Below are positions 3,511 through 62,273 of a stretch of DNA of 64,000 nucleotides, in pieces. The stretch lies in the NCBI GenBank assembly GCA_035536235.1, contig DATLOQ010000119.1, forward strand, positions 9 to 64,008. The letters are read 5' to 3'. Position 1 is the first letter of the stretch; every line of letters starts with the position of its first letter. Position numbers and translations under genes: made by a program. This stretch comes from Mycobacteriales bacterium (GTDB taxonomy: Bacteria > Actinomycetota > Actinomycetes > BP-191). The notes beneath the pieces are model-generated. The model ran no database searches. It saw nothing but the letters and a program-made list of their open reading frames with translations, and was not told where the DNA came from.

Positions 3511-4886
3511 CGCGCCCGAAGGTGGGCGAGGACGGTGGCCGCGGCCTTCTCCCCGGATCGGATGCAGGCGGGCACCCCCACGCCGTCGTACGCCGAGCCG
3601 GCCAGGGCCAGTCCGGGCAAAGCGGCGAGCGCGGCGTCGACCCGGGCGATTCGCTCCCGGTGCCCGACGGCGTACTGCGGCAGCGCGTCGGCCCAGCGCG
3701 AGACGCGGACCTCGAGCGGGCGCGCGGTGAGCCCGACCGCGAGCGCCAGCTCGGTGAGCAGTCGCGCCACGATCTCGTCGTCGTCGTCGGGGGCCGGCTC
3801 GCCTGCTCGCCCGACGGAGCACCGCACGATTGTCACGTCGCCCCGGTCGAGGTGCGCCCACTTCGCCGACGAGAAGGTGCACGCCTTCATCAGGCGACCT
3901 TCGGTCGCCGGCACCAGGAAGCCGCTGCCTCCCGGCGCTCCCGCCAGCGCCCCACGAGGCAGCGCCATGGTCACGACCACGACCGACGCAGTCCTGACGC
4001 CGGCGAGCTCGGTCGACACCTCGGGGGCAGCGAATCGCAGCAGGCTGCTCGCGACAGGAGCCGGCGTCGCCGCGACCACGGCATCCACCACGAGAGCGCG
4101 ACCCCCGACCAGGGTGATCCGCCACGCGTTGCCGACCCGCTCGACCAGGGCCGCCCGGGACGACAAGCGCACGGCGTCGCCGAGGGAGCGCGCGATGGCC
4201 TGGGGCAGCTGCCCGAGGCCGCCGTCGAGAGACGAGAAGACCGGCGACGTGTCGACGGGTGCGGCCGCGGTGCGGCTGCGCACCACGCGCATCACGGAAC
4301 GCTGGCCGTGCGCTGCCGCAGCCAGCTGCGGCACTGTCGACTCGAGGCTTAGCTCGTCCGCCCGACCGGCGTAGACCCCGCCGAGCAAGGGGTCAACGAG
4401 GCGGTCGACGACCTGCCGACCGAGGCGGCGCCGGACGAGCTCCCCGACACTGATGTCGCCGACGGGTGCCGACGCGGGCAGCACCAGGTCGGCCGCCGCG
4501 CGGAGCAGTCCGGCCGGCGAGAGCACCCTGCTGGATGCCAGAGATCGCCATGACCCGGGCACGCCGAGGAGAGTGCCCTCAGGAATGGGGCGTAGCCGGT
4601 CCCCGATCCACACGTAGGCCTGCCCGGTGCTTGGCGAGACCAGCAGCTCGCCGAGCCCGACCTCACGGGCCAGCCGCTCCCCCTCGGGCACCCGGGCCAG
4701 GAAGGCGTCCGCTCCCGCGTCGACCTGGAGCCCACCGATCGACGACGTGTGCAGGATGCCGCCGACCCGCGCCGACCCCTCTAGCACGATCACCTCGATG
4801 GCGGGATCAGCGGTGCGATGGAGCGCATGAGCGCAGGCCAGTCCGGAGATTCCGCCGCCGATGACGGCGACCACCCTGCGCCCCAT
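3501..4886 (-). CDS. hemY: protoporphyrinogen/coproporphyrinogen III oxidase (HemY/CgoX), FAD-dependent
   Basis: N-terminal GxGxxG (VVAVIGGGISGLACA), full-length HemY-like similarity, heme-gene context. Confidence 0.85.
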   Translation of the reverse strand: MGRRVVAVIGGGISGLACAHALHRTADPAIEVIVLEGSARVGGILHTSSIGGLQVDAGADAFLARVPEGERLAREVGLGELLVSPSTGQAYVWIGDRLRPIPEGTLLGVPGSWRSLASSRVLSPAGLLRAAADLVLPASAPVGDISVGELVRRRLGRQVVDRLVDPLLGGVYAGRADELSLESTVPQLAAAAHGQRSVMRVVRSRTAAAPVDTSPVFSSLDGGLGQLPQAIARSLGDAVRLSSRAALVERVGNAWRITLVGGRALVVDAVVAATPAPVASSLLRFAAPEVSTELAGVRTASVVVVTMALPRGALAGAPGGSGFLVPATEGRLMKACTFSSAKWAHLDRGDVTIVRCSVGRAGEPAPDDDDEIVARLLTELALAVGLTARPLEVRVSRWADALPQYAVGHRERIARVDAALAALPGLALAGSAYDGVGVPACIRSGEKAAATVLAHLRARPG

Positions 4887-4894
4887 GTCCTGGC

Positions 4895-5875
4895 TCAGCG
4901 CGGGGGGACCGGTACGGCGTCGGTCGTCGCAGCTCTCGCTGACTCGGGGACCAGCGGCCGCGGCCGCAGGCGCCCTTCAGCGAGGGCCACCGCCACGATG
5001 ACGACCGCCCCGCCGACGAAGAGGTTCCAGCCGAGCGGCTCGTCGAGGACGGCCACCCCTAGCGCCACCGCGACGAGCGGGATCAAGAAAGTGACCATCG
5101 ACGCGCTGGTCGCCCCGATGTCACGGATCAGCCCGTGGTAGAGCACGAAGGCGATGCCCGTGCCGAGCGCCCCGAGCGCGAGCATCGAGAGCACGACTCT
5201 CGGAGTGAGCGTCATCGGCTCCCGGGAAGCCAGCGGGGTGATGACCCCGAGGATGACGGCCGACGCCGTGAGCTGGCAGGCGGCCAGGACCACCGGCGAG
5301 ATGCCCGTGCCGGACAGCTTCTTGCGGGTGAGGTTGAAGCCGACGCCGTACGACACCGCTGCACCGAGTGCGGCCAGCTGACCGGTGATCAAGTTCGCTT
5401 GGTCCGATCCGCGCCACGGCCCCAGCACGACCACCACCCCGAGGAAGCCGAGCAGCAGCCCGTAGACCCGCTCCCGGCTGGGCCGCTCCTCAGGGAGGAA
5501 GAGGATGGCGATCACCAGGGTCATCAGCGGGGTGGTCGCGTTGTAGACCCCGGACACTCCGCTGGAGATGCGCTCGCCGGCCCACCCGAACGCGTAGAAC
5601 GGGATGACGTTCGCCACCAGCGAGAGCACTGCCACCCGCCCCCAGAGGCTGCGGTCGCGCGGCACCGGCAGTCGCCGTACGGCGACGATCAGCCAGACCA
5701 CTACCGCGCCGGCCAGGGTGCGGCCCAGAGCTACCTGCAGGGGCGACAGCCCCTCGAGGGCCACCTTGATGAAGAGGAAGCTGGTGCCCCAGACCGCACC
5801 GAGGAAGCCGAGTCGGAGCAGCGCAGACCGGCTCATTCGCGCAGAGGTCATGGCGGAGTTCGCGGGAGCAGACAC
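4895..5875 (-). CDS. DMT/EamA family transporter
   Basis: 10-TM hydrophobic profile and duplicated EamA-like halves. Confidence 0.65.
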   Translation of the reverse strand: MSAPANSAMTSARMSRSALLRLGFLGAVWGTSFLFIKVALEGLSPLQVALGRTLAGAVVVWLIVAVRRLPVPRDRSLWGRVAVLSLVANVIPFYAFGWAGERISSGVSGVYNATTPLMTLVIAILFLPEERPSRERVYGLLLGFLGVVVVLGPWRGSDQANLITGQLAALGAAVSYGVGFNLTRKKLSGTGISPVVLAACQLTASAVILGVITPLASREPMTLTPRVVLSMLALGALGTGIAFVLYHGLIRDIGATSASMVTFLIPLVAVALGVAVLDEPLGWNLFVGGAVVIVAVALAEGRLRPRPLVPESARAATTDAVPVPPR

Positions 5876-5884
5876 CGACCGAGC

Positions 5885-6805
5885 CTACGCGGCGCCGCTG
5901 CGCTCGTCGGCCGCTTGCCGGACCAGCTGCGCCAGTGCCGCCATCACCTCGGGATCGGCGTTGATCGACCGCGTGCGCGCGAAGGGCAGGCCCAGCTGAC
6001 GGGCCAGCCCGGCTGCCTCGATGTCGAGGTCGTAGGCCACCTCCAGGTGATCTGCCGTGAAGCCGCAGGCGCAGATCACCACTCCCGGCGACTGTGCCCC
6101 GGCGCGGTCGGTGAGGATCTGCAGCACATCCGGGCCCAGCCACGGTTCGGCGGTGCGCCCGGCGCTCTGCCAGCCGACCGACCACGTGGGCAGGGCGAGC
6201 CTCTCGGCGACTTCCTGGGCTGTCTCGGCCAGCTGCATCGGGTACGGGTCGCCCATCGTCACGACGCGCTCCGGCACCGAGTGGGCAGTGAAGACGACCT
6301 CACCGCCGGGCACTAATGCCAGCGCGTCGGTGACGGCTCGGGCGAGGAAGTCGACGTACGCCGGCAGCAGGTGCCACGACGGGACGGTCTCGACCGCGAC
6401 GCCATGGGTCTCGCCCGCCGCAGCCGCCTTCGCGGCGTACTGGCCCACCGACACCGTCGACCAGTGCGGTGCCAGGACGAGCCCGACGGCTCGGTCGAGC
6501 CCGTCAGCAGCCAGCGCGGCCACCCCCTCCTCGATCGAGGGCGCGGAGTGCTTGGTGCCCAGCACAACCGTGAAGCGATCGGGCTCGGCAGCGTCGAGGG
6601 CACTCTGGATCCCGTCGAGCTGCGACTCGGTGATCGCGCGCAGCGGGAACGTGCCGCCGAGCGCGTCGTAGCGCGCAGTGAGGTCCGCCAGCTGCTGAGG
6701 CTCCGGAGGACGGCCGCGTCGGATGTCGGTGTAGTACACCTCGATGTCGTCGCGGTCCCGGGGCGTGCCGTACGCCATCACCAGCACTCCGACCCGTTCG
6801 GTCAC
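5885..6805 (-). CDS. hemH: ferrochelatase (coproporphyrin ferrochelatase CpfC/HemH)
   Basis: MTERVGVLVMAYGTP... ferrochelatase N-terminus and family length. GTG start. Confidence 0.85.
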   Translation of the reverse strand: MTERVGVLVMAYGTPRDRDDIEVYYTDIRRGRPPEPQQLADLTARYDALGGTFPLRAITESQLDGIQSALDAAEPDRFTVVLGTKHSAPSIEEGVAALAADGLDRAVGLVLAPHWSTVSVGQYAAKAAAAGETHGVAVETVPSWHLLPAYVDFLARAVTDALALVPGGEVVFTAHSVPERVVTMGDPYPMQLAETAQEVAERLALPTWSVGWQSAGRTAEPWLGPDVLQILTDRAGAQSPGVVICACGFTADHLEVAYDLDIEAAGLARQLGLPFARTRSINADPEVMAALAQLVRQAADERSGAA

Positions 6806-53004: not shown

Positions 53005-54876
53005 GTGGATACGACGACTGCTGACCCGCTCGTAGGGCAGCTGATCGACGGCCGATACCGCGTCGACGCCCGGGTGGCTCGGGGCGGGATGGCCACGGTC
53101 TACCGGGCGTTCGACACCCGACTGGACCGCATCGTGGCCCTCAAGGTGATGCACGACTCGCTGGCGCAGGACGACGCCTTCGTCGAGCGGTTCAAGCGGG
53201 AAGCCAAGAGCGCCGCCCGACTCCAGCACCCCAATGTCGTCGCGATCTTCGACCAGGGCGAGGACGCCGGTCGGGTCTACCTCGTCATGGAGCTGGTGAG
53301 CGGCCGCACCCTGCGCTCGGTGCTGCGGGAGCAGGGGCGCCTCGACGTCGGCCAGGCGCTCGGCGTCGCGGAGGGCCTGCTCACTGCTTTGGCGGCCGCC
53401 CACGACGCCGGCATCGTCCATCGCGACGTCAAGCCCGAGAACGTCCTCGTCACCGAGTCCGGCCAGGTCAAGGTGGCCGACTTCGGGCTGGCCCGGGCCA
53501 TCGAGTCCACCCACCACACCGTCGCGGACGGCACCCTCATCGGCACGGTGGCCTACCTCGCGCCGGAGCAGGTGCTCACCGGCGCTGCTGACGCGCGCAC
53601 CGACATCTACTCGGCCGGGATCGTCCTCTACGAGATGCTGACCGGCGCTGTGCCCTTCACGGGCGACATCCCGATCAACGTCGCCTACCAGCACGTCAAC
53701 GACGACGTGCCCCCGCCCTCGGCGACCGAGCGCACCCTGCCGGCAATGATCGACGCACTCGTCGTCGACGCGACCCGCCGACCCCCCGAGCAGCGCTACC
53801 CGGACGTGCAGACGATGCTGGCCGCCGTACGGCGGGCCAACGCGATGGCGGGCGCCGACACCAGCCACTACACGTCGGTGGTCTCGCTGGCCGACGCGCC
53901 GACGACGGTGCTGTCGCTGGGTCGCGCGCCCGCCGGGGCCCCGCCCCGCGACGCTGGCTCCCCGGCTCCGAAGGTGCGCCGGCGTCGACGTGCTCCCCTG
54001 GTGCTCGCGATCCTCGCCGGTCTCATCCTGGGCACCGCAGGCGCGGTGGGGTGGTGGTTCGGCTCCGGCCGCTACGAGGACGCGCCGACGTTCGAGCGGC
54101 TGACCCAGGAGGCCGCGCAGGCCCGGGCGGCCGAGCTCGACGTGGACATCGAGATCAAAGAGCCGTCGCCCTTCGACGAGGTGGTGCCCCGCGGCACGGT
54201 CATCGACCAGGACCCGGAGCCGGGTGCGCGCTTCCGGCGCGGCACTGCGATCACCCTGACGATCTCGCGCGGGCCCGACCGCGTCGCGATCCCTGACGTC
54301 CGGGGCAAGACCGAAGCGCAGGCGCGCGCCCTCCTCGTCGCGCAGCGCCTCGACGTCGTTCTCGCACCGCTGGAGTTCCACCGCGAGGTCCCGGCGGGCA
54401 CCGTCATCGACCAGAACCCGGGTCCTAGGGCAATCAAGGACGTCAAGCCCAGCACTGCCGTCACCCTCATCGTGAGCAAGGGACCCGAGCCGGCCACCGT
54501 CCCGGCGGTGGAAGGCCGCACGCGCGCTGACGCGGAGAAGCTGCTGTCCGAGGCCGGTCTGGTGGCCAAGGTGGTCGAGACGTTCGACGACAAGGTCCCG
54601 GCCGGCATCGTGATCCGCCAGGACCGTGCAGGCGGCTCGACCGCCGCTCGGGGGGACACGGTGACCCTCACCGTGTCCAAGGGGCCCGAGCTGGTGACTG
54701 TGCCCGACGTCGAGGGCCGTCGGCGCGAGGAGGCGCAGACGCTGCTGCAGGCCGCGGGCTTCCGCGTGCGGTTCGTCGAGTTCCCCGGTCGGCGCGGCAA
54801 GACCGTGATCGATCAGAACCCCGCCGGTGGCGAGCGGCGCCGGCGCGGCACCGTCGTGACCTGCTTCCTGTTCTGA
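53005..54876 (+). CDS. Ser/Thr protein kinase with four extracellular PASTA domains (PknB/PknL-like)
   Basis: Hanks kinase motifs (VALK, HRDVKPEN, DFGLA, APE), a TM, then four PASTA repeats. GTG start. Confidence 0.85.
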   Translation: MDTTTADPLVGQLIDGRYRVDARVARGGMATVYRAFDTRLDRIVALKVMHDSLAQDDAFVERFKREAKSAARLQHPNVVAIFDQGEDAGRVYLVMELVSGRTLRSVLREQGRLDVGQALGVAEGLLTALAAAHDAGIVHRDVKPENVLVTESGQVKVADFGLARAIESTHHTVADGTLIGTVAYLAPEQVLTGAADARTDIYSAGIVLYEMLTGAVPFTGDIPINVAYQHVNDDVPPPSATERTLPAMIDALVVDATRRPPEQRYPDVQTMLAAVRRANAMAGADTSHYTSVVSLADAPTTVLSLGRAPAGAPPRDAGSPAPKVRRRRRAPLVLAILAGLILGTAGAVGWWFGSGRYEDAPTFERLTQEAAQARAAELDVDIEIKEPSPFDEVVPRGTVIDQDPEPGARFRRGTAITLTISRGPDRVAIPDVRGKTEAQARALLVAQRLDVVLAPLEFHREVPAGTVIDQNPGPRAIKDVKPSTAVTLIVSKGPEPATVPAVEGRTRADAEKLLSEAGLVAKVVETFDDKVPAGIVIRQDRAGGSTAARGDTVTLTVSKGPELVTVPDVEGRRREEAQTLLQAAGFRVRFVEFPGRRGKTVIDQNPAGGERRRRGTVVTCFLF

Positions 54877-54904
54877 CCAGTCGACGACTCTGCCACCCCG
54901 CCTG

Positions 54905-55780
54905 ATGGCTCCTCGCAAGACCTCGCTGATCGGCGTGCACGTCCCGGTGGCCGGCGGCCTGGCCCGCAGCGGTCTGAGCTACGCCCGCGAGGTAGGCGCC
55001 GAAGCGGTGCAGGTCTTCGTCTCCAACCCCCGGGGGTGGGCGCAGTCCGGTGGTGACGCAGCTCAGGATGCAGCGTTCGTCGCCGGCTGTCGGTCCGCCG
55101 CACTGCCGGTCTTCGTCCACGCGCCGTACCTCGTCAACCTCGGCTCGCCGACGCCGGCCACGGTGGTGAAGTCGGTCGACGCGCTGCGGCATTCGGTCCG
55201 CCGTGGTCGCGTGCTGGGCGCCCGGGGGGTCGTGGTGCACGCCGGTTCCGAAGTTCTGGGCCACTCTTACGACGCGGCGATCCGGCAGGTCCGCGAGCAC
55301 CTGCTCCCCCTGCTCGACGAGCTCGACGACGACGACCCCGATGTGCTGATCGAGATGACCGCCGGTGCCGCGGGTTCGCTCGCCGCAAGCCCGGAGCGCC
55401 TCGGCGCCTACCTCGACGCGCTGGACCGGCACCCTCGGGTCGGCGTCTGCGTCGACACCTGCCACGCCATGGCCGCGGGCCACGACCTCGCTGCGCCTGG
55501 TGGCCTCCGGCGGTTCCTCGCCGCGATACACCGGATCGTCGGCCGCGGGCGGATCCGGCTGGTGCACGCCAACGACTCCAAGGACCCGGTCGGCTCCGCC
55601 CGCGACCGCCACGAGCGGATCGGGGCGGGCTCGATCGGCAGCGAGGCGTTCCGGGAGCTCTTCGTCCACCCGGCCACGCGTGGCGTGGCGCTGGTGATGG
55701 AGACCCCGGGCAGCGTCGACGAGCACCGCACCGACGTCGATTTGCTCAAGCGGTTTCGACACGAGGCGCTCGCCCGATGA
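54905..55780 (+). CDS. nfo: deoxyribonuclease IV (AP endonuclease family 2)
   Basis: Xylose-isomerase-like TIM barrel with Nfo metal-site motifs (HAPYLVNL, HAGS, CVDTCH). Confidence 0.85.
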   Translation: MAPRKTSLIGVHVPVAGGLARSGLSYAREVGAEAVQVFVSNPRGWAQSGGDAAQDAAFVAGCRSAALPVFVHAPYLVNLGSPTPATVVKSVDALRHSVRRGRVLGARGVVVHAGSEVLGHSYDAAIRQVREHLLPLLDELDDDDPDVLIEMTAGAAGSLAASPERLGAYLDALDRHPRVGVCVDTCHAMAAGHDLAAPGGLRRFLAAIHRIVGRGRIRLVHANDSKDPVGSARDRHERIGAGSIGSEAFRELFVHPATRGVALVMETPGSVDEHRTDVDLLKRFRHEALAR

Positions 55781-56676
55781 GCAAGGTCCAACGACGCAGC
55801 CCGTCCACCGGCGCGGTGATTGCTGCCCTTGTCGCGGTCACCGCCATCTGGGGTTCGACGTTCGTAGTCGTGAAGGACGCGATCGGGCGCATGCCGGTCA
55901 TGGACTTCCTGGCCTGGCGATTCGCGCTGGCCACCCTGGCCATGCTCATCCTTCGCCCGCGCTCACTCTCGCGGCTGTCCCCCACCGGGCGTCGGCACGG
56001 AGTGCTGCTCGGCCTGGCACTGGGCACCGGCTACATCTTCCAGACCATCGGCCTGCGTACGGCGGACGCCGCGGTGTCCGGCTTCATCACCGGGATGTTC
56101 GTGGTCTTCACGCCACTCGTCGCTGCCGTGCTGCTACGCCGCTGGCCCAGCAGGGACGCCTGGGCCGCAGTGCTGTTGGCCACCGTCGGCCTGGCGCTGC
56201 TCTCGCTCCAGGGCTTCCACATCGGCACCGGTGAGGCGTTGACCTTGATCTGCGCCGTAGCCTTCGCGCTGCACATCGTCGGGCTCGGCGAGTGGTCGTC
56301 GTCGTACGACGCCTACGCCTTGGCGGTGGTGCAGCTCGGAGTCGTCGCCATCGGCTGCGCGATCGGTGCGCTGGCGGGTGGGCTGGTGGCGCCGCCCGAT
56401 GCGGAGGTCTGGGGTGCGCTCGCTCTCACCGCACTGCTCGCCACCGCAGTGGCCTTCGTCGTGCAGACCTGGGCCCAAGCGCACCTCGCCCCCACCCGGG
56501 CCGCGGTCATCATGACGATGGAGCCGGTCTTCGCCGGGGTGTTTGCCGCCGCTGCCGGCGAAGCCTTCGGCGTGCGAAAGCTGGTCGGCTCCGCGCTCAT
56601 CCTGCTCGCCATGCTCGCCGTCGAGCTGGGCCCGCGCCGCGGCGCCGAAGGCGATGTCGCCCGCCTCGAGACCTGA
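55777..56676 (+). CDS. DMT/EamA family transporter
   Basis: 10-TM duplicated EamA architecture. Confidence 0.7.
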   Translation: MSKVQRRSPSTGAVIAALVAVTAIWGSTFVVVKDAIGRMPVMDFLAWRFALATLAMLILRPRSLSRLSPTGRRHGVLLGLALGTGYIFQTIGLRTADAAVSGFITGMFVVFTPLVAAVLLRRWPSRDAWAAVLLATVGLALLSLQGFHIGTGEALTLICAVAFALHIVGLGEWSSSYDAYALAVVQLGVVAIGCAIGALAGGLVAPPDAEVWGALALTALLATAVAFVVQTWAQAHLAPTRAAVIMTMEPVFAGVFAAAAGEAFGVRKLVGSALILLAMLAVELGPRRGAEGDVARLET

Positions 56677-56701
56677 GCGCGCTGCTACTCCAGAGCTCTG
56701 C

Positions 56702-57319
56702 CTACTCAGGGCCTTCCCCGGGAAGCTCCTGATAGGAGTAACGGTGCTCCAGCCAGGGATCGGCGACGTTGTGGTAGCCGCGCTCCTCCCAGAAGCCGCG
56801 TCGGTCGCGGGTCAGGTACTCCACGCCGCGCACCCACTTGGGCCCCTTCCAGGCGTAGAGGTGCGGCACGATCAACCGGAGCGGGTAGCCGTGCTCCACG
56901 CTGAGCGGCTCGCCGTTGCGGTGCGTCGCGAAGAGCGCCTGGGCGTCGGCGAAGTCGGCGAGCCTCATGTTGGCGCCGTACCCGTACTCCGCCCACACCA
57001 TGACGTGGGTCGCCCCCGGCGCCGGCGGCGCGAGGCGCAGCACTTCCGAGGTCGCGACCCCGGTCCAGTCGTTGTCGAGCACAGAGAACTTCGTCACGCA
57101 GTGGAAGTCGGCGTGCACATCAGTGCGGGGCAGTGCCCCGAAGTCTTCCCAGCCGAGCGACTTCTCCGCTGCCGTCGCGCCGAAGATCCTGAAGTCCCAC
57201 TTCTCCGGGTCGAACTTCGGCACCGGCCCGTAGTGCAGCACCGGCCACCCGCGCGGGATGTACTGGCCCGGCGGCAACCGCGTGTCTGCCACTGATCCCC
57301 GTCGTTCCGGTGTCATCAC
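56702..57319 (-). CDS. sulfite-oxidase-like molybdopterin oxidoreductase (MsrP/YedY-type catalytic domain)
   Basis: Oxidored_molyb-like sequence (HCVTKFSVLDNDWTGV ... GYPLRLIVPHLYAWKGPKWVRGVE). Confidence 0.65.
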   Translation of the reverse strand: MMTPERRGSVADTRLPPGQYIPRGWPVLHYGPVPKFDPEKWDFRIFGATAAEKSLGWEDFGALPRTDVHADFHCVTKFSVLDNDWTGVATSEVLRLAPPAPGATHVMVWAEYGYGANMRLADFADAQALFATHRNGEPLSVEHGYPLRLIVPHLYAWKGPKWVRGVEYLTRDRRGFWEERGYHNVADPWLEHRYSYQELPGEGPE

Positions 57320-57382
57320 TCGCGTCGCTCCGGTGTCATCAACCGCCTGCTCGAGTAGCCCTGCGCTCTGATCCTCGCACTA

Positions 57383-58456
57383 GTGGAGAATCGGCCCATG
57401 GTTGTCGTCATGAGCACCGATGCGTCGAGCGCTGACATCGACGCCGTCGTCGCGGTGGTTCAGGCCGCGGGCGGTGACGCCTTCGTATCCCGAGGGGTGT
57501 CCCGCACGATCGTCGGCCTCGTCGGCGACATCGAGCACTTCTCGAGCCTCAACCTCGCCGCTCTGCCCAACGTCGTCGACGTCCTGCGCATCTCCCGGCC
57601 CTACAAGCTCGTCTCGCGGGAGAGCCACGCCGAACCGTCCACGGTCGTCGTCGGAGGCGTGCCGATCGGTCCGCAGCACTTCACCCTGATCGCCGGTCCC
57701 TGCGCAGTGGAGACAGCTGAGCAGACACTCGAAGCAGCGCAGATGGCGAAGCGGGCGGGGGCGCAGCTGCTGCGCGGTGGGGCCTTCAAGCCGCGCACAT
57801 CGCCGTACGCTTTCCAGGGCCTCGGGGAGGCCGGCCTGAAGATCCTCGCGGACGTGCGAGCCGAGACCGGGATGCCGGTGGTCACCGAGGTCGTCGACGC
57901 CGCCGACGTGCCGCTCGTCGCGTCCTACGCCGACATGCTCCAGGTCGGCACTCGCAACATGGCTAACTTCTCCCTCCTGCAAGCCGTCGGCGAGTGCGGC
58001 AAGCCAGTGCTGCTCAAACGCGGGCTCCAGGCGACACTGGAGGAGTGGTTGATGGCCGGCGAGTACATCGCCCAGCGCGGAAACCTCTCGATCGTCTTCT
58101 GTGAGCGCGGGATCCGGACGTTCGAGACCGCCACCCGCAATACCCTGGACATCTCGGCGGTGCCGATGCTGCACATGCTGAGCCACCTGCCGGTCATCGT
58201 CGACCCGTCTCACGCCGCTGGTCGGCGCGACCTGGTCGTGCCGCTCGCCCGGGCGGCCATGGCAGCCGGCGCGGACGGGGTGATCGTCGACTGCCACCCG
58301 CACCCCGAGGCGGCACTGTGCGACGGACCGCAGGCCCTGGTGGCCAGCGACCTCGCCGAGCTCGCCGAGGCAGCCCGCACCATTCCACCGCTCGTCGGTC
58401 GCACGTCAGCGAGCGGTGGGCGATTCGAGGGTGGCGACACCGAGCTCCGGTCGTAG
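57383..58456 (+). CDS. 3-deoxy-7-phosphoheptulonate synthase, class I-beta, with N-terminal regulatory domain
   Basis: DAHPS/KDO8PS family core (GPCAVE...KPRTSPY...) preceded by a ~80-aa ACT/FL-like extension. Confidence 0.8.
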   Translation: MENRPMVVVMSTDASSADIDAVVAVVQAAGGDAFVSRGVSRTIVGLVGDIEHFSSLNLAALPNVVDVLRISRPYKLVSRESHAEPSTVVVGGVPIGPQHFTLIAGPCAVETAEQTLEAAQMAKRAGAQLLRGGAFKPRTSPYAFQGLGEAGLKILADVRAETGMPVVTEVVDAADVPLVASYADMLQVGTRNMANFSLLQAVGECGKPVLLKRGLQATLEEWLMAGEYIAQRGNLSIVFCERGIRTFETATRNTLDISAVPMLHMLSHLPVIVDPSHAAGRRDLVVPLARAAMAAGADGVIVDCHPHPEAALCDGPQALVASDLAELAEAARTIPPLVGRTSASGGRFEGGDTELRS

Positions 58457-58490
58457 GACGATGCGGCTGGACGCGTCAGGAGGACCACCC

Positions 58491-59741
58491 GTGCGCAGCT
58501 CTGGTCGGCCGCTCATCAGCGCCGAGTCGTTCGAGGCCGTGGTCAGCGGCTATGCCGACCGGGTGCACGACGACGTACGCCGACTCGGAGCAACGCAGGC
58601 CGAGGCCGCCCAGATCGTCGAGATGAGCGCCCTCGACGTCCTCGACTCCGTCCATCGTGGCGAGTGCGCGGAAGTGAGCGCTGTCGTCGGGCAGTGGTTC
58701 AACCAGGCTCGCACGCTCGCCTGCCGCCTCGTCGAGGCCGACGACCAGCAGCGGCCACCTGACCCGGATGCGTCCTCGGAGGCCCCGGAGGGCCTGATCC
58801 GCGACACCGATCTGGACCTGGCCCTGCGACGCGGGCTGGCCGCCATGTCGTCACGGGACCGGGCCGCACTGCTGCTGCGAGACGCCTACGAGCTGCCCGA
58901 AGCCGCCACCGCCACGGCACTCGAGCTCGACATCGCCGCCACCCGCGCCCTCGTCACCCAGGCGCGTCGACACTTCGCTGAGGTCGTCGAGATGCGTACG
59001 CCGGCGGAGGTGCCGCTGCACCTGCGTGGGCTCGCCATCCTCGCGCTCCCGGACGGCGAACGCGACCTCATCCTCGACCGGGTGGCGGCCGCCGCGCAGT
59101 CTCGGCTGCCCTCCGACGGCGACCTGGCCACCCTCGCAGAAGTCGAGGACGACCCGGTATACGGCCCGTCGTGGGTCCTGGTGACCGTGAGCATCATCTG
59201 CGCCCTGCTCTTCGGCGCCTTGACCGGCATCGTGACCGCACCTGCCGGCCCGGGCTCGTTGAGCTCCGGCGGCAGCTTGCCGGAGCCGGTGACCCGATTC
59301 GACGTACGCGCCATCGACCCGGCCTTCCAGACCCCGACCAGCACCCCGGCCGCCACGCCGTCGCCATCCCTTTCGCCGTCAGCGCGCCCGACCCCGAGCC
59401 CGACCCCGAGCCCGACCCCGTCAGTCGCGGAGCCCAGTGCGAGCGCTAGCACTCCGCCGGCGGGTGCGGCGACGATCGCGCTGAGCCCGCAGCGCGGGCC
59501 CGACTGCACCATCGTGCGGGTGGTCGGCCGCAACTTCCCGCCGGGAGCTGCGGCCACCGTGACCTACCTGGACCTCACCGGACGGCCGACGGCCTCTGGC
59601 GGAGAGGGCGCGGTCGGGCCTGATGGCCGCTTCGAGGTGGAGTTCGCCGCCTGCGACCCCAGCCGGCTGCCCGGACCTCACCAGGTCATCGGAGCTGCGG
59701 GTGACCGAGAGGATCGCGCCACCTTCACCGCGACGGCGTGA
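58491..59741 (+). CDS. single-chain ECF sigma factor (sigma-2 + sigma-4) fused to an anti-sigma-like TM segment, Pro/Thr/Ser-rich linker and ~90-aa extracytoplasmic beta-rich (IPT/TIG-like) domain
   Basis: Sigma-2-like FEAVVSGYADRVHDDVRRL...AEAAQIVEMSALDVL...VGQWFNQARTLACRL; sigma-4-like SSRDRAALLLRDAYELPEAATATALELDIAATRALVTQARRHF; TM helix WVLVTVSIICALLFGALTGIVTA; PT linker TPTSTPAATPSPSLSPSARPTPSPTPSPTPS. GTG 58491 with an AGGAGG ribosome-binding site. Confidence 0.5.
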   Translation: MRSSGRPLISAESFEAVVSGYADRVHDDVRRLGATQAEAAQIVEMSALDVLDSVHRGECAEVSAVVGQWFNQARTLACRLVEADDQQRPPDPDASSEAPEGLIRDTDLDLALRRGLAAMSSRDRAALLLRDAYELPEAATATALELDIAATRALVTQARRHFAEVVEMRTPAEVPLHLRGLAILALPDGERDLILDRVAAAAQSRLPSDGDLATLAEVEDDPVYGPSWVLVTVSIICALLFGALTGIVTAPAGPGSLSSGGSLPEPVTRFDVRAIDPAFQTPTSTPAATPSPSLSPSARPTPSPTPSPTPSVAEPSASASTPPAGAATIALSPQRGPDCTIVRVVGRNFPPGAAATVTYLDLTGRPTASGGEGAVGPDGRFEVEFAACDPSRLPGPHQVIGAAGDREDRATFTATA

Positions 59742-59840
59742 CCGCCGCAATGCGTCACCGCGACGGCGTGACCGCCGCACTACGTCACTGCGACGGCGTG
59801 ACCGCCGCACTACGTCACTGCGACGGCGTGACCGCCGCAC
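59731..59840. repeat. 3.7 tandem copies of a 30-bp unit CGACGGCGTGACCGCCGCACTACGTCACTG
   Basis: Read directly: copies at 59731-59760 (variant ...CAATGCGTCACCG), 59761-59790, 59791-59820, and a 20-nt partial at 59821-59840. The first copy contains the stop of the sigma-fusion gene; the last copy encodes the C-terminus and stop of aroG on the other strand. Confidence 0.8.
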
Positions 59841-61206
59841 GGCGCTGCTGCAGCATCTCGGCCACGAGGAACGCCAGCTCGAGGCTCTGGCTCGTGTTCA
59901 GCCGCGGGTCGCAGGCCGTCTCGTAGCGGCTGGCCAGCTGGTGCGGCGCCACTTCTTCTGCCCCGCCCAGGCACTCGGTGACGTCTTCTCCGGTGAGCTC
60001 GACATGGATGCCGCCAGGCCAGGTGCCCAGCGCTGCGTGCACCTCGAAGAACCCGCGGCACTCATCGAGGATCGCGTCGAAGTGCCGCGTCTTGAAGGTG
60101 CCGGAGGAATACGTGTTGCCGTGCATCGGGTCACAGGCCCACACCACCGGATGCCCGGCGTCGCGGACCGCAGTGACCAGCGGCGGCAGCAGATCCCGCA
60201 CCCGCTCGGCGCCCATCCGGGAGATGAGCGTCAGCCGACCCGGGATGCGGCTCGGGTTCAGCGCGTCGGCCAGCGCGACAGCCTCCGCGCCGGTCGCCTC
60301 CGGACCGAGCTTGACCCCCAGCGGGTTGATGACGCCGCGCAGCAGGCCGACGTGGGCGCCGTCGATCCGCCGGGTCCGCTCCCCCAACCACAGCATGTGA
60401 CCCGAGCAGTCCACCCAGTCGCCGCTGGCGTCCTCCCGCCGGACCAGCGGCGCTTCGTAGTCGAGCAGCAGCGCCTCGTGCGAGGCGTACAGCTCCACCT
60501 CGTGCGCCATCTCAAAACGATCGAGGTCGATGCCGCAGGCCCGCATGAAGTCGAGTGCCTGCTCGATCGACGATGCCAGTGCCTCATAGCGCTGGCCGGC
60601 CGGACTGCGGCGGACGAAGTCCTGGTTCCACTCGTGCACCTTGCGCAGGTCCGCGAAGCCGCCGGTGGCGAAAGCCCGGACCAGGTTGAGCGTCGCTGCT
60701 GACTGGTGGTAGCTCTGCAGCAGCCGTCTGGGATCAGGCCGGCGCGCGTCTGGAGTGGCGGCGATGTCGTTGACTGCGTCGCCGCGGTAGGAGGGCAGCG
60801 GGACGCCATCGACCGCCTCGACGTCGGAGCTGCGTGGCTTGGCGAACTGCCCAGCGATCCGCCCCACCTTCACGACCGGCACCGCGGCGCCGTACGTCAG
60901 CACGATGGCCATCTGCAGCAGCGTCTTGAGCTTGTCCCTGATGCCATCAGCGGACAGCGCAGCGAACGTCTCGGCGCAGTCGCCGCCCTGCAGCAGGAAC
61001 GCCTCACCCCGGGCCACCGCCGCGAGCCGGCTCTGCAGGGTGCGGCACTCCCCGGCGAAGACGAGGGGCGGCATCCGGCGCAGCTCCGCTGTGGCGGTGC
61101 CGAGCGCGTCGGCGTCAGGCCACTGCGGCTGCTGCGCGGCGGGCAGCGCGCGCCAGGAGTCGTCGTACGTCGCAGTCACGACACTCAGCCTATGGCGGGC
61201 CGTCAC
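59815..61206 (-). CDS. aroG: 3-deoxy-7-phosphoheptulonate synthase, class II (Rv2178c-type)
   Basis: 463-aa class II DAHPS similarity throughout (KPRSS, GHMLWLGERTR, WACDPMHGNT). Confidence 0.9.
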   Translation of the reverse strand: MTARHRLSVVTATYDDSWRALPAAQQPQWPDADALGTATAELRRMPPLVFAGECRTLQSRLAAVARGEAFLLQGGDCAETFAALSADGIRDKLKTLLQMAIVLTYGAAVPVVKVGRIAGQFAKPRSSDVEAVDGVPLPSYRGDAVNDIAATPDARRPDPRRLLQSYHQSAATLNLVRAFATGGFADLRKVHEWNQDFVRRSPAGQRYEALASSIEQALDFMRACGIDLDRFEMAHEVELYASHEALLLDYEAPLVRREDASGDWVDCSGHMLWLGERTRRIDGAHVGLLRGVINPLGVKLGPEATGAEAVALADALNPSRIPGRLTLISRMGAERVRDLLPPLVTAVRDAGHPVVWACDPMHGNTYSSGTFKTRHFDAILDECRGFFEVHAALGTWPGGIHVELTGEDVTECLGGAEEVAPHQLASRYETACDPRLNTSQSLELAFLVAEMLQQRRAAVTPSQ

Positions 61207-61244
61207 CTGTCAGGTGGGGAGCGGCGTGCCCCAACGTGCCGAGC

Positions 61245-62273
61245 TCAGCCGAAGAAGACCTGCGCCTCGGCGTAGAGCTCCGGCGGCACGGTCTTGAGCG
61301 TGCCCACCGCGTCCGCCAGGGGGACCAGCTCGATGGCCGTGCCGCGCAGCGCGGTCATCGTTCCCCACGCCTGCTGCTGCACGGCGTCGATGGCACGCAG
61401 CCCGAACCTCGTGGCCAGCACCCGGTCGTACGCCGTCGGCGTACCGCCGCGCTGGATGTGCCCCAGCACCGTCGCGCGAGCGTCCTTGCCGGTGCGTCCG
61501 CGGATCTCCTCCTCCAGCCGCTGACCGATGCCGGCGAGGCGGACGTGACCGAAGGCGTCCGTCTCGCCCTCCTTCACCGCCATGGTGCCCTCCCGGGGCA
61601 GCGCCCCCTCTGCCACGACGACTATCGGGGCGTAGCGGGTCTGGAAGCGGTGCTCGATGTGCCGGCACACCTCCTCGATGTCGAAGGGCCGTTCTGGGAT
61701 GAGGATCACGTTGGCCCCGCCGGCCAGCCCGCTGTGCAGCGCGATCCACCCCGCGTGGCGGCCCATGACCTCGACGATCAGCACCCGGTGGTGGCTCTCA
61801 GCGGTCGTGTGCAGCCGGTCGATCGCGTCGGTCGCGATCTGCACCGCGGTGTCGAAGCCGAAGGTGTAGTCCGTGGCGTTGAGGTCGTTGTCGATCGTCT
61901 TCGGCACGCCGACGACGTGCACCCCCTCAGCATGCAGCTTGTCGGCCACGCCGAGGGTGTCCTCACCGCCGATCGCGATGAGCGCGTCGATGCCAATCTC
62001 ACTGAGCGTCGTCTTGATGCGCTCGACGCCGCCCTCGACCTTGAACGGGTTGGTTCGCGAGGAGCCGAGGATGGTCCCACCGCGCGGCAGGATGCCGCGT
62101 ACGTCGGGCACGCTGAGCTCGGTGTAGTCAGACTCCAGCGGCCCGCGCCAGCCATCGCGAAAACCGATGAAGTCGTGACCGAAGTCCTGCACGCCCTTGC
62201 GCACGACGGCGCGGATCACCGCGTTGAGGCCAGGGCAATCACCCCCGCCGGTCAAGACACCGATGCGGCTCAT
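61245..62273 (-). CDS. pfkA: 6-phosphofructokinase
   Basis: GGDGS-type motif (LTGGGDCPGLN), substrate-binding MGR and other PFK motifs. Confidence 0.9.
   Translation of the reverse strand: MSRIGVLTGGGDCPGLNAVIRAVVRKGVQDFGHDFIGFRDGWRGPLESDYTELSVPDVRGILPRGGTILGSSRTNPFKVEGGVERIKTTLSEIGIDALIAIGGEDTLGVADKLHAEGVHVVGVPKTIDNDLNATDYTFGFDTAVQIATDAIDRLHTTAESHHRVLIVEVMGRHAGWIALHSGLAGGANVILIPERPFDIEEVCRHIEHRFQTRYAPIVVVAEGALPREGTMAVKEGETDAFGHVRLAGIGQRLEEEIRGRTGKDARATVLGHIQRGGTPTAYDRVLATRFGLRAIDAVQQQAWGTMTALRGTAIELVPLADAVGTLKTVPPELYAEAQVFFG

What the first reader, a model, noticed from the sequence alone, without database searches (positions are those of the whole stretch)
58491..59741. Single-polypeptide ECF sigma / anti-sigma-like transmembrane fusion with an extracytoplasmic IPT-like domain
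The N-terminal ~190 aa carry recognisable sigma-2 and sigma-4 regions. The same chain continues into a hydrophobic TM helix, a Pro/Thr/Ser-rich linker and a ~90-aa beta-rich C-terminal domain. A membrane-tethered sigma factor with its own sensor domain would be a one-component transmembrane signalling device. The gene sits between two DAHP synthases of different classes and ends inside the 30-bp repeat array.
Basis: inference. Interest (0 to 1): 0.55.

Follow-up and report, generated by a model that had tools for sequence, protein, structure and literature searches.

The report
Membrane-anchored sigma-like protein lacking its zinc anti-sigma module
This gene encodes a real single protein: a very divergent ECF-sigma-factor-like domain joined to a membrane helix and an outside-facing Ig-like domain, from an uncultured-actinobacterial family of a known general kind (sigma/anti-sigma fusions), and unusual in having deleted the zinc-binding anti-sigma segment its relatives carry.

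Summary
Gene 58491-59741 encodes a 416-aa protein with five parts. They are a sigma2/sigma4-fold N-terminal domain, one TM helix (aa 226-248), a Pro/Ser/Ala/Thr linker, and a C-terminal Ig-like beta-sandwich. It lies between a class-I and a class-II DAHP synthase gene and ends in a 30-bp tandem array.

It is not a frameshift artefact. At least 235 protein clusters, all from Frankiales/Mycobacteriales metagenome bins, share the full-length architecture. 57 genome loci share the same synteny.

Most relatives (60/68) carry a canonical zinc anti-sigma motif, H-x25-H-x3-C-x2-C, between sigma4 and the TM helix. The window protein and its closest relatives lack it through an in-frame deletion of about 43-52 aa at nt 59003/59004. 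A second lineage lost it independently.

Sigma/anti-sigma/TM fusions are already known (ECF48/52/53, IutY). I rate this a new variant of a known kind, of moderate interest.

The parts
58478..58483 (+). Shine-Dalgarno AGGAGG, 7 nt upstream of the GTG start
   Evidence: Sequence. The same SD-plus-GTG arrangement is present in the closest relatives L001, L006 and L007.
58491..59741 (+). CDS of 416 aa plus stop: sigma-like / ASD-remnant / TM / linker / Ig-like fusion protein
   Evidence: ORF list. Full-length homologs of 404-455 aa. At least 235 clusters.
58518..58739 (+). Sigma2-like domain (aa 10-83): three helices with conserved YADRVHDDVRRLG (region 2.1-like) and VGxWFxxAR (region 2.3/2.4-like)
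58740..58805 (+). Acidic, Pro-rich sigma2-sigma4 linker (aa 84-105)
   Evidence: pLDDT 66-81. Low conservation, 0.56.
58806..58985 (+). Sigma4-like domain (aa 106-165): conserved RxALLLRDAYxLP (4.1-like) and an HTH whose recognition helix (aa 148-157) is variable
   Evidence: Pfam Sigma70_r4_2 at 24.4 bits. 33 of 39 family members hit it. Conservation profile.
59001..59147 (+). Remnant of a class-I anti-sigma domain (aa 171-219): the C-terminal end of helix III (LRGLAILALPD) and helix IV (ERDLILDRVAAAA). The in-frame deletion junction relative to ZAS-bearing homologs lies between aa 171 and 172 (nt 59003/59004).
   Evidence: Alignments. Up to 52 alignment columns of insertion in relatives, carrying H-x25-H-x3-C-x2-C. 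pLDDT 93-98.
59166..59234 (+). Single transmembrane helix (aa 226-248) with a conserved A238-x3-G242 motif
   Evidence: Hydropathy. AF2 helix 228-249. A238 is invariant and G242 is at least 90% conserved.
59235..59468 (+). Pro/Ser/Ala/Thr-rich disordered linker (aa 249-326), including a CCCGAC-type 6/12-bp repeat at 59386-59420
   Evidence: Composition. pLDDT 45-64. Tandem Repeats Finder.
59469..59738 (+). Extracytoplasmic Ig-like beta-sandwich (aa 327-416), of IPT/TIG - MG - neocarzinostatin type, with a co-varying Cys339/Cys388 pair
59725..59840 (.). 30-bp tandem array (3.9 copies) covering the 3' ends of both convergent genes
   Evidence: Tandem Repeats Finder. Four exact 20-mers against 0.01 expected by chance. 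Absent in relatives, where the two 3' ends abut or overlap. No RNA structure signal, z +1.31.
57383..58456 (+). Upstream gene: type-I DAHP synthase (ferredoxin-like domain plus DAHP_synth_1), 34 nt from the sigma-like gene and probably co-transcribed with it
   Evidence: Pfam. No promoter-like site found in the region. The conserved -10-like element of relatives is reduced to gTAGGACGATG, overlapping the TAG stop.
59815..61206 (-). Convergent downstream gene: class-II DAHP synthase
   Evidence: Pfam E 1.9e-201. Conserved convergent partner in the related loci that extend far enough downstream.

Best explanation
The gene encodes a bitopic membrane protein, N-terminus in and C-terminus out. It is a lineage-specific derivative of a sigma / anti-sigma / TM / sensor fusion family found in uncultured Frankiales-Mycobacteriales actinobacteria.

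Shown:
- A cytoplasmic domain with the ECF sigma2+sigma4 fold.
- One TM helix.
- A disordered P/S/T-rich stalk.
- An Ig-like (IPT/MG-type) ectodomain.
- The ancestral and majority form has a zinc-binding class-I anti-sigma domain (ZAS) fused between sigma4 and the TM helix.
- In the window's clade an in-frame deletion removed ASD helices I-II and most of helix III, including all zinc ligands. The end of helix III and helix IV were kept.

Inferred mechanism: the sigma-like domain is made constitutively. In relatives it is expressed from a sigmaA-type, often leaderless promoter; here it is probably read through from the DAHP synthase I gene. It is kept inactive by being tethered to the membrane and by the retained helix IV covering regions 2.1/2.2, which form the RNAP-clamp-binding face. 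A cue at the Ig-like ectodomain (ligand unknown) would trigger regulated proteolysis at or near the TM helix. That would release the sigma-like domain to bind RNAP core, as proposed for ECF52/ECF48/ECF53 and demonstrated for IutY.

Loss of the ZAS module means that any redox or zinc input, and the sigma4-masking part of the inhibition, are gone in this clade.
For: Architecture and conservation. Synteny is the same across the 57 related genome loci.

Sigma fold:
- Foldseek gives probability 1.00 to several ECF sigma structures.
- The family profile matches Mtb SigE over both domains at E 1e-4.
- 33 of 39 members hit Sigma70_r4_2, and 27 of 39 hit TIGR02983.

ZAS in relatives:
- H...C..C is present in 60 of 68 homologs.
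- There are Pfam zf-HC2, TIGR03988 RsrA and NF052375 anti-sigma hits in ZAS-bearing members.
- The deletion boundaries are shown.

Helix roles in class-I ASDs (helices 1-3 bind sigma4, helix 4 binds sigma regions 2.1/2.2) come from PMC7406223. Region 2.1 is the best-conserved helix of sigma2 (0.82). The remnant helices are modelled at pLDDT 93-98.

Topology: there is a single TM segment. 'PRR' precedes the TM helix in most relatives. The Cys339/Cys388 pair in the ectodomain co-varies.

Precedent for release by proteolysis: PMC8999054 and PMC5826349.

Purifying selection after ZAS loss: within the ZAS-less clade, sigma4 is 82% identical and sigma2 70% identical, against 48% for the linker.
Against: No curated sigma model reaches its cut-off. 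TIGR02937 scores 11.7 bits against a cut-off of 42.9. There is no Sigma70_r2 hit. Sigma70_r4_2 scores 24.4 against 25.7.

The region-2.2 'D-x-x-Q-E-x-F' core-binding motif is replaced: the family consensus reads E-V-V-E-T-S-A.

The N-terminal half of the sigma4 recognition helix is the least conserved part of the domain (0.46). It carries on average 0.6 basic residues, with Glu common at the position equivalent to E. coli sigmaE S172 (residue equivalence from my own alignment to sigmaE, so a lead rather than a test).

No ECF-type autoregulatory promoter is seen. The upstream element in relatives is a TAnnnT -10 of housekeeping type.

Proteolytic release, the signal and any regulon are all untested.
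Confidence: 0.5

Rival explanations
1. Pseudo-sigma (sigma mimic). The N-terminal domain keeps the sigma2/sigma4 fold but no longer binds RNAP or promoter DNA. It would serve as a protein-interaction module at the membrane, as the sigma-like domain of PhyR does. In ZAS-bearing relatives it might occupy or release the fused anti-sigma domain in an intramolecular partner switch that controls a separate, genuine ECF sigma. In the ZAS-less window clade it would interact with another partner.
Confidence: 0.3
2. A membrane-tethered sigma that works without being released, analogous in logic to ToxR/CadC-type one-component membrane activators. With the ZAS module gone, the tethered domain would recruit RNAP to promoters at the membrane.
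For: Most of the cis-inhibitory domain has been lost while the TM helix and ectodomain are retained. The conserved AxxxG motif in the TM helix suggests TM-TM interaction rather than a passive anchor.
Against: I found no precedent for a sigma factor working this way in the papers read. Only about 55 residues separate sigma4 from the membrane, and they are mostly helical and confidently packed, which leaves little reach for holoenzyme assembly. It shares the same doubts about DNA binding as the main explanation.
Confidence: 0.07
3. A decaying relic. After deletion of the ZAS core the gene would be non-functional and drifting towards a pseudogene.
For: A large internal deletion removed a conserved functional motif. 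The native -10-like element upstream is disrupted in the window.
Against: The deleted form is intact and full-length in at least 5 independent genomes or assemblies at 57-73% identity. The folded domains are much better conserved than the linker. The SD sequence and start codon are conserved. A second lineage (L057/L060) made a similar in-frame deletion and also kept the rest of the protein.
Confidence: 0.05
4. A sequencing or assembly frameshift has merged separate sigma and anti-sigma genes.
For: None was found.
Against: More than 235 homologous clusters from many independent assemblies encode the same single polypeptide of 404-469 aa. The alignment is collinear through the junction. No two-gene version was seen among the 57 genome loci.
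Confidence: 0.01

Closest known systems
ECF52 sigma factors (SCO4117 of Streptomyces coelicolor), with the related actinobacterial groups ECF48 and ECF53
   Same: One polypeptide in an actinobacterium, built as N-terminal ECF-type sigma domain, then a zinc-finger (ZAS) anti-sigma domain, then TM helix or helices, then a proline-rich extracytoplasmic stretch, then a C-terminal beta-rich binding domain. The proposed activation is proteolytic release (PMC5826349, PMC8999054). The ZAS-bearing majority of the present family has exactly this logic.
   Different: The window protein lacks the zinc finger. Its ectodomain is an Ig-like IPT/MG/neocarzinostatin-type sandwich, not the NPCBM-type carbohydrate-binding module reported for SCO4117. 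SCO4117's sigma domain is reported to match TIGR02937, whereas here that model scores 11.7 bits against a cut-off of 42.9. No sequence link to ECF52 appeared in any search, though this was not tested directly because no ECF52 sequence or HMM was available. The family is known only from metagenome bins.
IutY of Pseudomonas putida (ECF243), a sigma / anti-sigma hybrid
   Same: The anti-sigma factor is fused C-terminally to the sigma factor. It has a single TM helix. Activation by regulated intramembrane proteolysis (Prc, RseP) has been shown experimentally, and the truncated sigma part is constitutively active (PMC8999054).
   Different: IutY is proteobacterial and uses a FecR-like anti-sigma module within a TonB-dependent cell-surface signalling system. 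Here there is no FecR-like domain and no transducer gene nearby.
Canonical two-protein ECF sigma / ZAS anti-sigma pairs (SigW-RsiW, SigR-RsrA, SigE-ChrR, SigL-RslA)
   Different: Here the two functions sit on one chain, and in the window protein ASD helices I-III are largely deleted.
CnrH-CnrY (class II, two-helix minimal anti-sigma)
   Different: There is no sequence similarity to CnrY. The resemblance is an inference from helix count and model confidence. Inter-helix contacts could not be inspected because the tools do not return model coordinates.
PhyR sigma-like domain (an anti-anti-sigma mimic)
   Different: There is no receiver domain. The protein is membrane-anchored with an ectodomain. 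The nearest structural neighbours are genuine ECF sigmas.

Membership tests
ECF (group 4) sigma-70 factors | Sigma2 domain recognised by curated models (Pfam PF04542 Sigma70_r2; TIGR02937 at or above 42.9 bits) | tested here: not met
   No Sigma70_r2 hit at E<=1. TIGR02937 scores 11.7 bits. Only 12 of 39 relatives hit TIGR02937 at E<=0.01, with best E 3.2e-7.
ECF (group 4) sigma-70 factors | Sigma4 domain recognised (Pfam PF08281 at or above 25.7 bits) | tested here: inconclusive
   The window protein scores 24.4 bits, E 2.3e-5, which is 1.3 bits below the cut-off. 33 of 39 relatives hit the model with best E 1.1e-10, and P0103 scores 27.0 bits, above the cut-off.
ECF (group 4) sigma-70 factors | Two-domain sigma2+sigma4 fold without sigma3 or sigma1 | tested here: met
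ECF (group 4) sigma-70 factors | Conserved promoter-contacting residues (region 4.2 recognition helix; region 2.2 core-binding motif) | tested here: not met
   Recognition helix aa 148-154 has conservation 0.46, the lowest in the domain. Positions 147-157 carry a mean of 0.6 basic residues. The region 2.2 consensus is EVVETSA in place of D-L-x-Q-E-x-F.
ECF (group 4) sigma-70 factors | Binds RNAP core and directs promoter-specific initiation | not testable with these tools
   This needs biochemistry or genetics.
Class I anti-sigma domain, zinc-binding (ZAS) subtype | H/C-x23-26-H-x3-C-x2-C zinc motif | tested here: not met
   The motif is absent from the window protein and from P0001-P0007. It is present in 60 of 68 homologs, for example H-x25-H-x3-C-x2-C in P0014. 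This is the ancestral state of the family, lost here.
Class I anti-sigma domain, zinc-binding (ZAS) subtype | Four-helix ASD: helices 1-3 bind sigma4, helix 4 binds sigma2 | tested here: not met
   Only the end of helix III and helix IV are retained (aa 171-219). Up to 52 alignment columns are missing relative to homologs. Helix roles are taken from PMC7406223.
ECF52 (SCO4117 type) | ECF sigma domain, zinc finger, TM helix or helices, proline-rich extension and a carbohydrate-binding module (smart00776/NPCBM), as described in PMC5826349 | tested here: not met
   The TM helix and Pro-rich linker are present. The zinc finger is absent. No NPCBM or other CBM hit was found, and the ectodomain is Ig-like.
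ECF52 (SCO4117 type) | Sigma core clusters with ECF52 in the ECF classification (ECF Hub HMMs) | not tested
The NAR supplement is not held. No ECF52-like named protein appeared among the hits.
IPT/TIG domain (Pfam PF01833), E-set Ig-like | Pfam TIG hit at or above the gathering score (20.9 bits) | tested here: not met
   The window protein has no TIG hit at E<=1. 4 of 39 relatives hit at best E 0.017, and P0103 scores 18.7 bits.
IPT/TIG domain (Pfam PF01833), E-set Ig-like | Ig-like beta-sandwich fold, and homology to TIG/MG2 repeats through intermediate sequences | tested here: met
PhyR-type sigma mimic | Sigma-like domain fused to a receiver domain, and binding of a NepR-type anti-sigma | tested here: not met
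   No Response_reg domain. PhyR-related hits are weak and cover only the sigma4 part.

The most novel reading that the evidence does not exclude
The sigma-fold domain is not a transcription-initiating sigma. It would be a membrane-anchored sigma mimic that originally formed an intramolecular 'sigma-mimic : ZAS anti-sigma' pair. This would be a single-chain partner-switch device: an extracytoplasmic cue, or a redox cue acting on the zinc site, frees the fused anti-sigma domain to capture a separate ECF sigma, or the reverse. The two independent deletions of the ZAS core would then mark lineages that rewired the device. In those lineages a membrane-tethered sigma mimic would be left acting on a different partner.
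Probability: 0.15. Interest if true: 0.7.

Novelty: new variant of a known kind. Interest (0 to 1): 0.4.

Why it matters
Sigma factors fused to their own anti-sigma, membrane and sensor modules are regarded as the 'one-component systems' of the sigma world. Only IutY, and in part SCO4117, have been studied experimentally.

This locus reveals a large, previously undescribed family of this kind. It has at least 235 sequence clusters, is known only from metagenome bins, and sits at a fixed position in the core genome. Its sigma core is so divergent that standard models miss it.

The family also offers a natural experiment. The zinc-binding anti-sigma core was deleted in frame twice, while the sigma-like domain, helix IV, the TM helix and the Ig-like ectodomain stayed under constraint. 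Comparing ZAS-bearing and ZAS-less forms could show which parts of a fused anti-sigma are needed for inhibition and which for signalling. It could also show whether such divergent sigma-fold domains still act as sigmas at all.

The practical significance is modest. The concept is already known, the organisms are uncultured, and no regulon or ligand can be named.

Tried and rejected
- Frameshift or merger artefact: rejected. Orthologs are single ORFs, collinear through the junction.
- Autoregulatory ECF-type promoter: not found. The consensus scan found nothing in 57300-60000. Relatives have a TAnnnT -10 of housekeeping type, often in a leaderless arrangement.
- The 30-bp array as a structured RNA or terminator: rejected. 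Fold z-score is +1.31, and 183 of 200 shuffles fold at least as well. The one terminator-like hit, at 59939-59951, lies inside the DAHP synthase II coding region.
- Rfam scan of the whole window: no RNA family reached its gathering score, so no rRNA was available to identify the organism.
- AlphaFold-database fold search (afdb50): the library was not available.
- ECF group assignment from the Casas-Pastor supplement: the supplement is not held, and the main text has no ECF48/52/53 detail.
- Search for cultured-organism homologs: the GTDB species scan returned only MAGs. It used two peptide patterns, so very divergent homologs could have been missed. The profile search with the N-terminal half (A2) also returned only family members from MAGs and metagenomes.
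- Link to ECF52: no evidence was obtained either way.
- Net charge of sigma4 as a discriminator: considered and dropped as uninformative.
- Contacts between the ASD remnant and sigma2 in the model: could not be inspected, because the tools do not return coordinates.
Full report
**1. The observation**

The + strand ORF runs 58416..59741. The GTG at 58491 is preceded by AGGAGG at 58478-58483. It corresponds to the N-terminus of the closest homologs, giving a 416-aa product.

Pfam finds only Sigma70_r4_2, at aa 111-161 with 24.4 bits and E 2.3e-5, against a gathering score of 25.7. It finds no Sigma70_r2. NCBIfam gives only weak, far sub-threshold ECF matches. One of them spans both domains: TIGR02983, aa 11-167, E 5e-5. 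TIGR02937 scores 11.7 bits against a cut-off of 42.9.

Hydropathy shows a single TM segment at aa ~226-248. The next 78 residues are 24% Pro, 19% Ser, 15% Ala and 13% Thr.

The flanking genes are a type-I DAHP synthase (57383-58456) and a convergent class-II DAHP synthase (59815-61206). A 30-bp tandem array of 3.9 copies spans 59725-59840 and contains the stop codon. Every descriptive element of the finding is therefore present. The only over-statement is 'recognisable sigma-2', which curated profiles do not see.

**2. Not an artefact: a conserved family**

A search of 5.8 billion proteins found 68 homologs. Almost all cover 94-100% of the query and are 404-455 aa long. A profile built from the N-terminal half found 235 clusters. 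A profile search of 1.84 billion cluster representatives found many further full-length representatives.

All come from metagenomes or MAGs labelled Mycobacteriales, Frankiales or Frankiaceae. A scan of one genome per GTDB species returned 57 loci, none from a cultured organism. That scan used two peptide patterns, so very divergent homologs could have been missed.

Gene order is the same across these loci: PASTA kinase, endonuclease IV, (EamA), (Mo-oxidoreductase), DAHP synthase I, (divergent threonine aldolase), this gene, convergent DAHP synthase II, phosphofructokinase. The gene is therefore a vertically inherited positional ortholog in a housekeeping region. The frameshift scenario is excluded.

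**3. Anatomy from structure**

An AlphaFold2 model built with the 39-sequence alignment has mean pLDDT 84.9. Values are 94-98 over aa 11-80 and 111-210, and 96-98 over aa 331-416. They are low only in the sigma2-sigma4 linker and the P/S/T stalk.

Foldseek agrees. A family profile matches M. tuberculosis SigE across both domains at E 1e-4, and SigJ over sigma4. The sigma2+sigma4 fold and remote homology to ECF sigmas are therefore well supported.

The C-terminal 90 residues form an eight-strand Ig-like sandwich. Its matches are:
- Foldseek top hit macromomycin, then neocarzinostatin.
- Seven of 39 members hit Pfam Neocarzinostat, 4 hit TIG and 14 hit the NCBIfam chromoprotein model, all weakly.
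- The family profile strongly matches giant proteins that carry up to 39 tandem copies of this domain. Pfam calls the repeats in two of these proteins TIG and MG2, above threshold.

'IPT-like' is thus a fair label at superfamily level.

**4. The unexpected part: relatives carry a ZAS anti-sigma domain that is deleted here**

In the alignment, homologs with 40% identity or less have about 43-52 extra residues between sigma4 and the conserved LRGLAILALPD motif. This insert contains H-x25-H-x3-C-x2-C, the signature of zinc-binding class-I anti-sigma domains. It is found in 60 of 68 homologs. Some members hit Pfam zf-HC2, TIGR03988 (RsrA) and other anti-sigma models.

The family is therefore, ancestrally, a sigma - ZAS - TM - stalk - Ig fusion. 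The window protein and its seven closest homologs (57-73% identity, from independent assemblies) share one in-frame deletion. Its junction lies between aa 171 and 172, at nt 59003/59004. It removes ASD helices I, II and most of III, including all zinc ligands. The end of helix III and helix IV are kept.

A neighbour-joining tree built on the sigma and Ig columns shows a second ZAS-less pair, L057/L060. It is nested in a different, ZAS-bearing clade and has different deletion boundaries. The zinc module was therefore lost twice.

After the loss the remaining domains stayed constrained. Within the window clade sigma4 is 82% identical, sigma2 70%, the ASD remnant 63% and the Ig domain 64%, against 48% for the stalk.

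In class-I anti-sigma domains, helices 1-3 bind sigma4. Helix 4 binds sigma regions 2.1/2.2, which form the RNAP clamp-helix-binding surface (PMC7406223). Region 2.1 is the best-conserved sigma2 helix in this family (0.82). The retained helices are modelled at pLDDT 93-98. From this I infer, but could not verify from coordinates, that helix IV still packs on sigma2.

**5. Is the sigma-like domain a working sigma?**

This stays open.

Evidence for:
- The fold matches genuine ECF sigmas.
- Region 2.1 is strongly conserved, as is the V62-D64-V66-G67-W69-F70-A73-R74 segment. That segment corresponds to the -10-reading loop and region 2.3.
- Region 4.1 (ALLLRDAYDLP) is strongly conserved.

Evidence against:
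- No curated model passes its cut-off.
- The region 2.2 D-L-x-Q-E-x-F motif reads E-V-V-E-T-S-A.
- The N-terminal half of the sigma4 recognition helix is the least conserved part of the domain (0.46). It has on average 0.6 basic residues, and Glu is frequent at the position I align with E. coli sigmaE S172. That equivalence comes from my own alignment.

In the window clade this helix is somewhat more basic (R152, R160, H161). Position 160 is Leu in 55 ZAS-bearing members and Arg in 9 sequences including the window clade. This is compatible with loss of a hydrophobic contact to ASD helix 1, the type of contact described for SigK L177 and RskA L18 in PMC7406223. This is inference.

**6. Expression**

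In most relatives a conserved TAnnnT element (cTAAGGTagt or TAGGCT) lies 6-8 nt before the GTG start. That is the arrangement of a leaderless mRNA transcribed from a housekeeping-type promoter. In two clades, including the window's, an SD-containing leader of 25-30 nt follows the element.

In the window, the threonine aldolase gene that usually lies upstream is absent. DAHP synthase I ends 34 nt before the start codon. The element is reduced to gTAGGACGATG, which overlaps the TAG stop, and no promoter-like site is detected. Co-transcription with DAHP synthase I is therefore likely. Nothing suggests the positive autoregulation typical of many ECFs.

**7. Mechanism**

Best-supported model (confidence about 0.5): the protein is N-in, C-out. 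The supporting points are as follows.
- The sigma and ZAS modules must be cytoplasmic.
- 'PRR' precedes the TM helix in relatives.
- A Cys pair in the ectodomain co-varies.

In this model the sigma-like domain is restrained by the membrane tether plus the residual helix IV. A cue at the Ig-like domain would trigger regulated proteolysis and release. This mechanism is proposed for ECF48/52/53 and has been shown for IutY (PMC8999054, PMC5826349).

Rivals:
- A pseudo-sigma or sigma mimic: 0.3.
- A tethered sigma acting without release: 0.07.
- A decaying relic: 0.05.
- An artefact: 0.01.

**8. Comparison with what is known, and novelty**

[quoted passage not shown] Fused ZAS-TM extensions define the actinobacterial groups ECF48, ECF52 and ECF53. 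The kind is therefore known.

This family differs in four ways:
- It has a sigma core too divergent for standard models.
- Its ectodomain is IPT/MG-type Ig-like rather than a carbohydrate-binding module.
- It occupies a fixed core-genome position in an uncultured lineage.
- In the window clade the zinc anti-sigma core has been lost.

Membership of ECF52 fails on the zinc finger and the CBM. Membership of 'ECF sigma' is met by fold but not by sequence thresholds. I rate this a new variant of a known kind, with interest 0.4.

**9. Side observations**

The 30-bp array is a quadruplication of the segment where the two convergent genes' 3' ends meet. Copy 1 encodes ...FTATA* of this gene, and copy 4 encodes ...AAVTPSQ* of DAHP synthase II. 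Relatives have no array, and their gene ends abut or overlap by 8-11 nt. The array shows no RNA-structure signal and occurs only at this site in the window.

In many relatives the divergent threonine aldolase gene starts about 20 nt away. The near-palindromic CTAAGGTAG can supply back-to-back -10 hexamers, TAAGGT on one strand and TACCTT on the other, for two leaderless genes.

Noticed in passing
window 59725-59840: The 30-bp tandem array is a roughly four-fold duplication of the segment where the two convergent genes' 3' ends meet. Copy 1 encodes the sigma-like protein's C-terminus (FTATA*). Copy 4 encodes the class-II DAHP synthase C-terminus (AAVTPSQ*) on the other strand. Relatives (L001, L003, L006) have no array, and their gene ends abut or overlap by 8-11 nt. 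There is no RNA-structure signal (z +1.31), and the core 20-mer occurs only here in the window.
   Followed up: yes
L011, L014, L016, L021-L025, L031, L032, L034 and others, about 20 nt upstream of the family gene (for example L011 around 5985-6003): A conserved TAnnnT element (cTAAGGTagt or TAGGCT) sits 6-8 nt before the GTG start, implying a leaderless mRNA. The divergent threonine aldolase gene starts about 20 nt away on the other strand. The near-palindromic CTAAGGTAG offers back-to-back -10 hexamers, TAAGGT and TACCTT, which suggests a compact bidirectional leaderless promoter.
   Followed up: partly
window 58440-58490: In the window the usual upstream threonine aldolase gene is missing from this position. 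The conserved upstream element is reduced to gTAGGACGATG, overlapping the TAG stop (58454-58456) of DAHP synthase I. The sigma-like gene is therefore probably read through from the DAHP synthase I gene.
   Followed up: partly
L057 about 3866-5071 and L060 about 5050-6258 (family gene): A second, independent in-frame loss of the ZAS zinc-binding helices has occurred. It has different boundaries and lies in a lineage nested among ZAS-bearing homologs.
   Followed up: yes
window 59505-59507 (Cys339) and 59652-59654 (Cys388): These two cysteines in the Ig-like ectodomain are present or absent together across 68 homologs. This suggests a clade-specific disulfide and supports an extracytoplasmic location.
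   Followed up: partly
window 59202-59216 (aa 238-242): The single TM helix carries an invariant Ala238 and a nearly invariant Gly242, forming an AxxxG small-residue motif. This is unusual conservation for a passive anchor. It might mediate TM-TM contacts or recognition by an intramembrane protease.
   Followed up: no
proteins P0069 (3262 aa), P0073 (3523 aa) and P0143 (6156 aa): The C-terminal Ig-like domain of this family recurs as 32-39 tandem copies in giant proteins, which are presumably surface adhesins. Two smaller examples, P0142 and P0171, are called TIG/MG2 repeats by Pfam.
   Followed up: partly
window 53005-62273: The block PASTA Ser/Thr kinase - endonuclease IV - EamA - Mo-oxidoreductase - DAHP synthase I - sigma-like gene - DAHP synthase II - phosphofructokinase is conserved in gene order across the 57 related MAG loci, as far as each contig extends. 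The genome thus keeps two DAHP synthases of different classes within 4 kb.
   Followed up: partly
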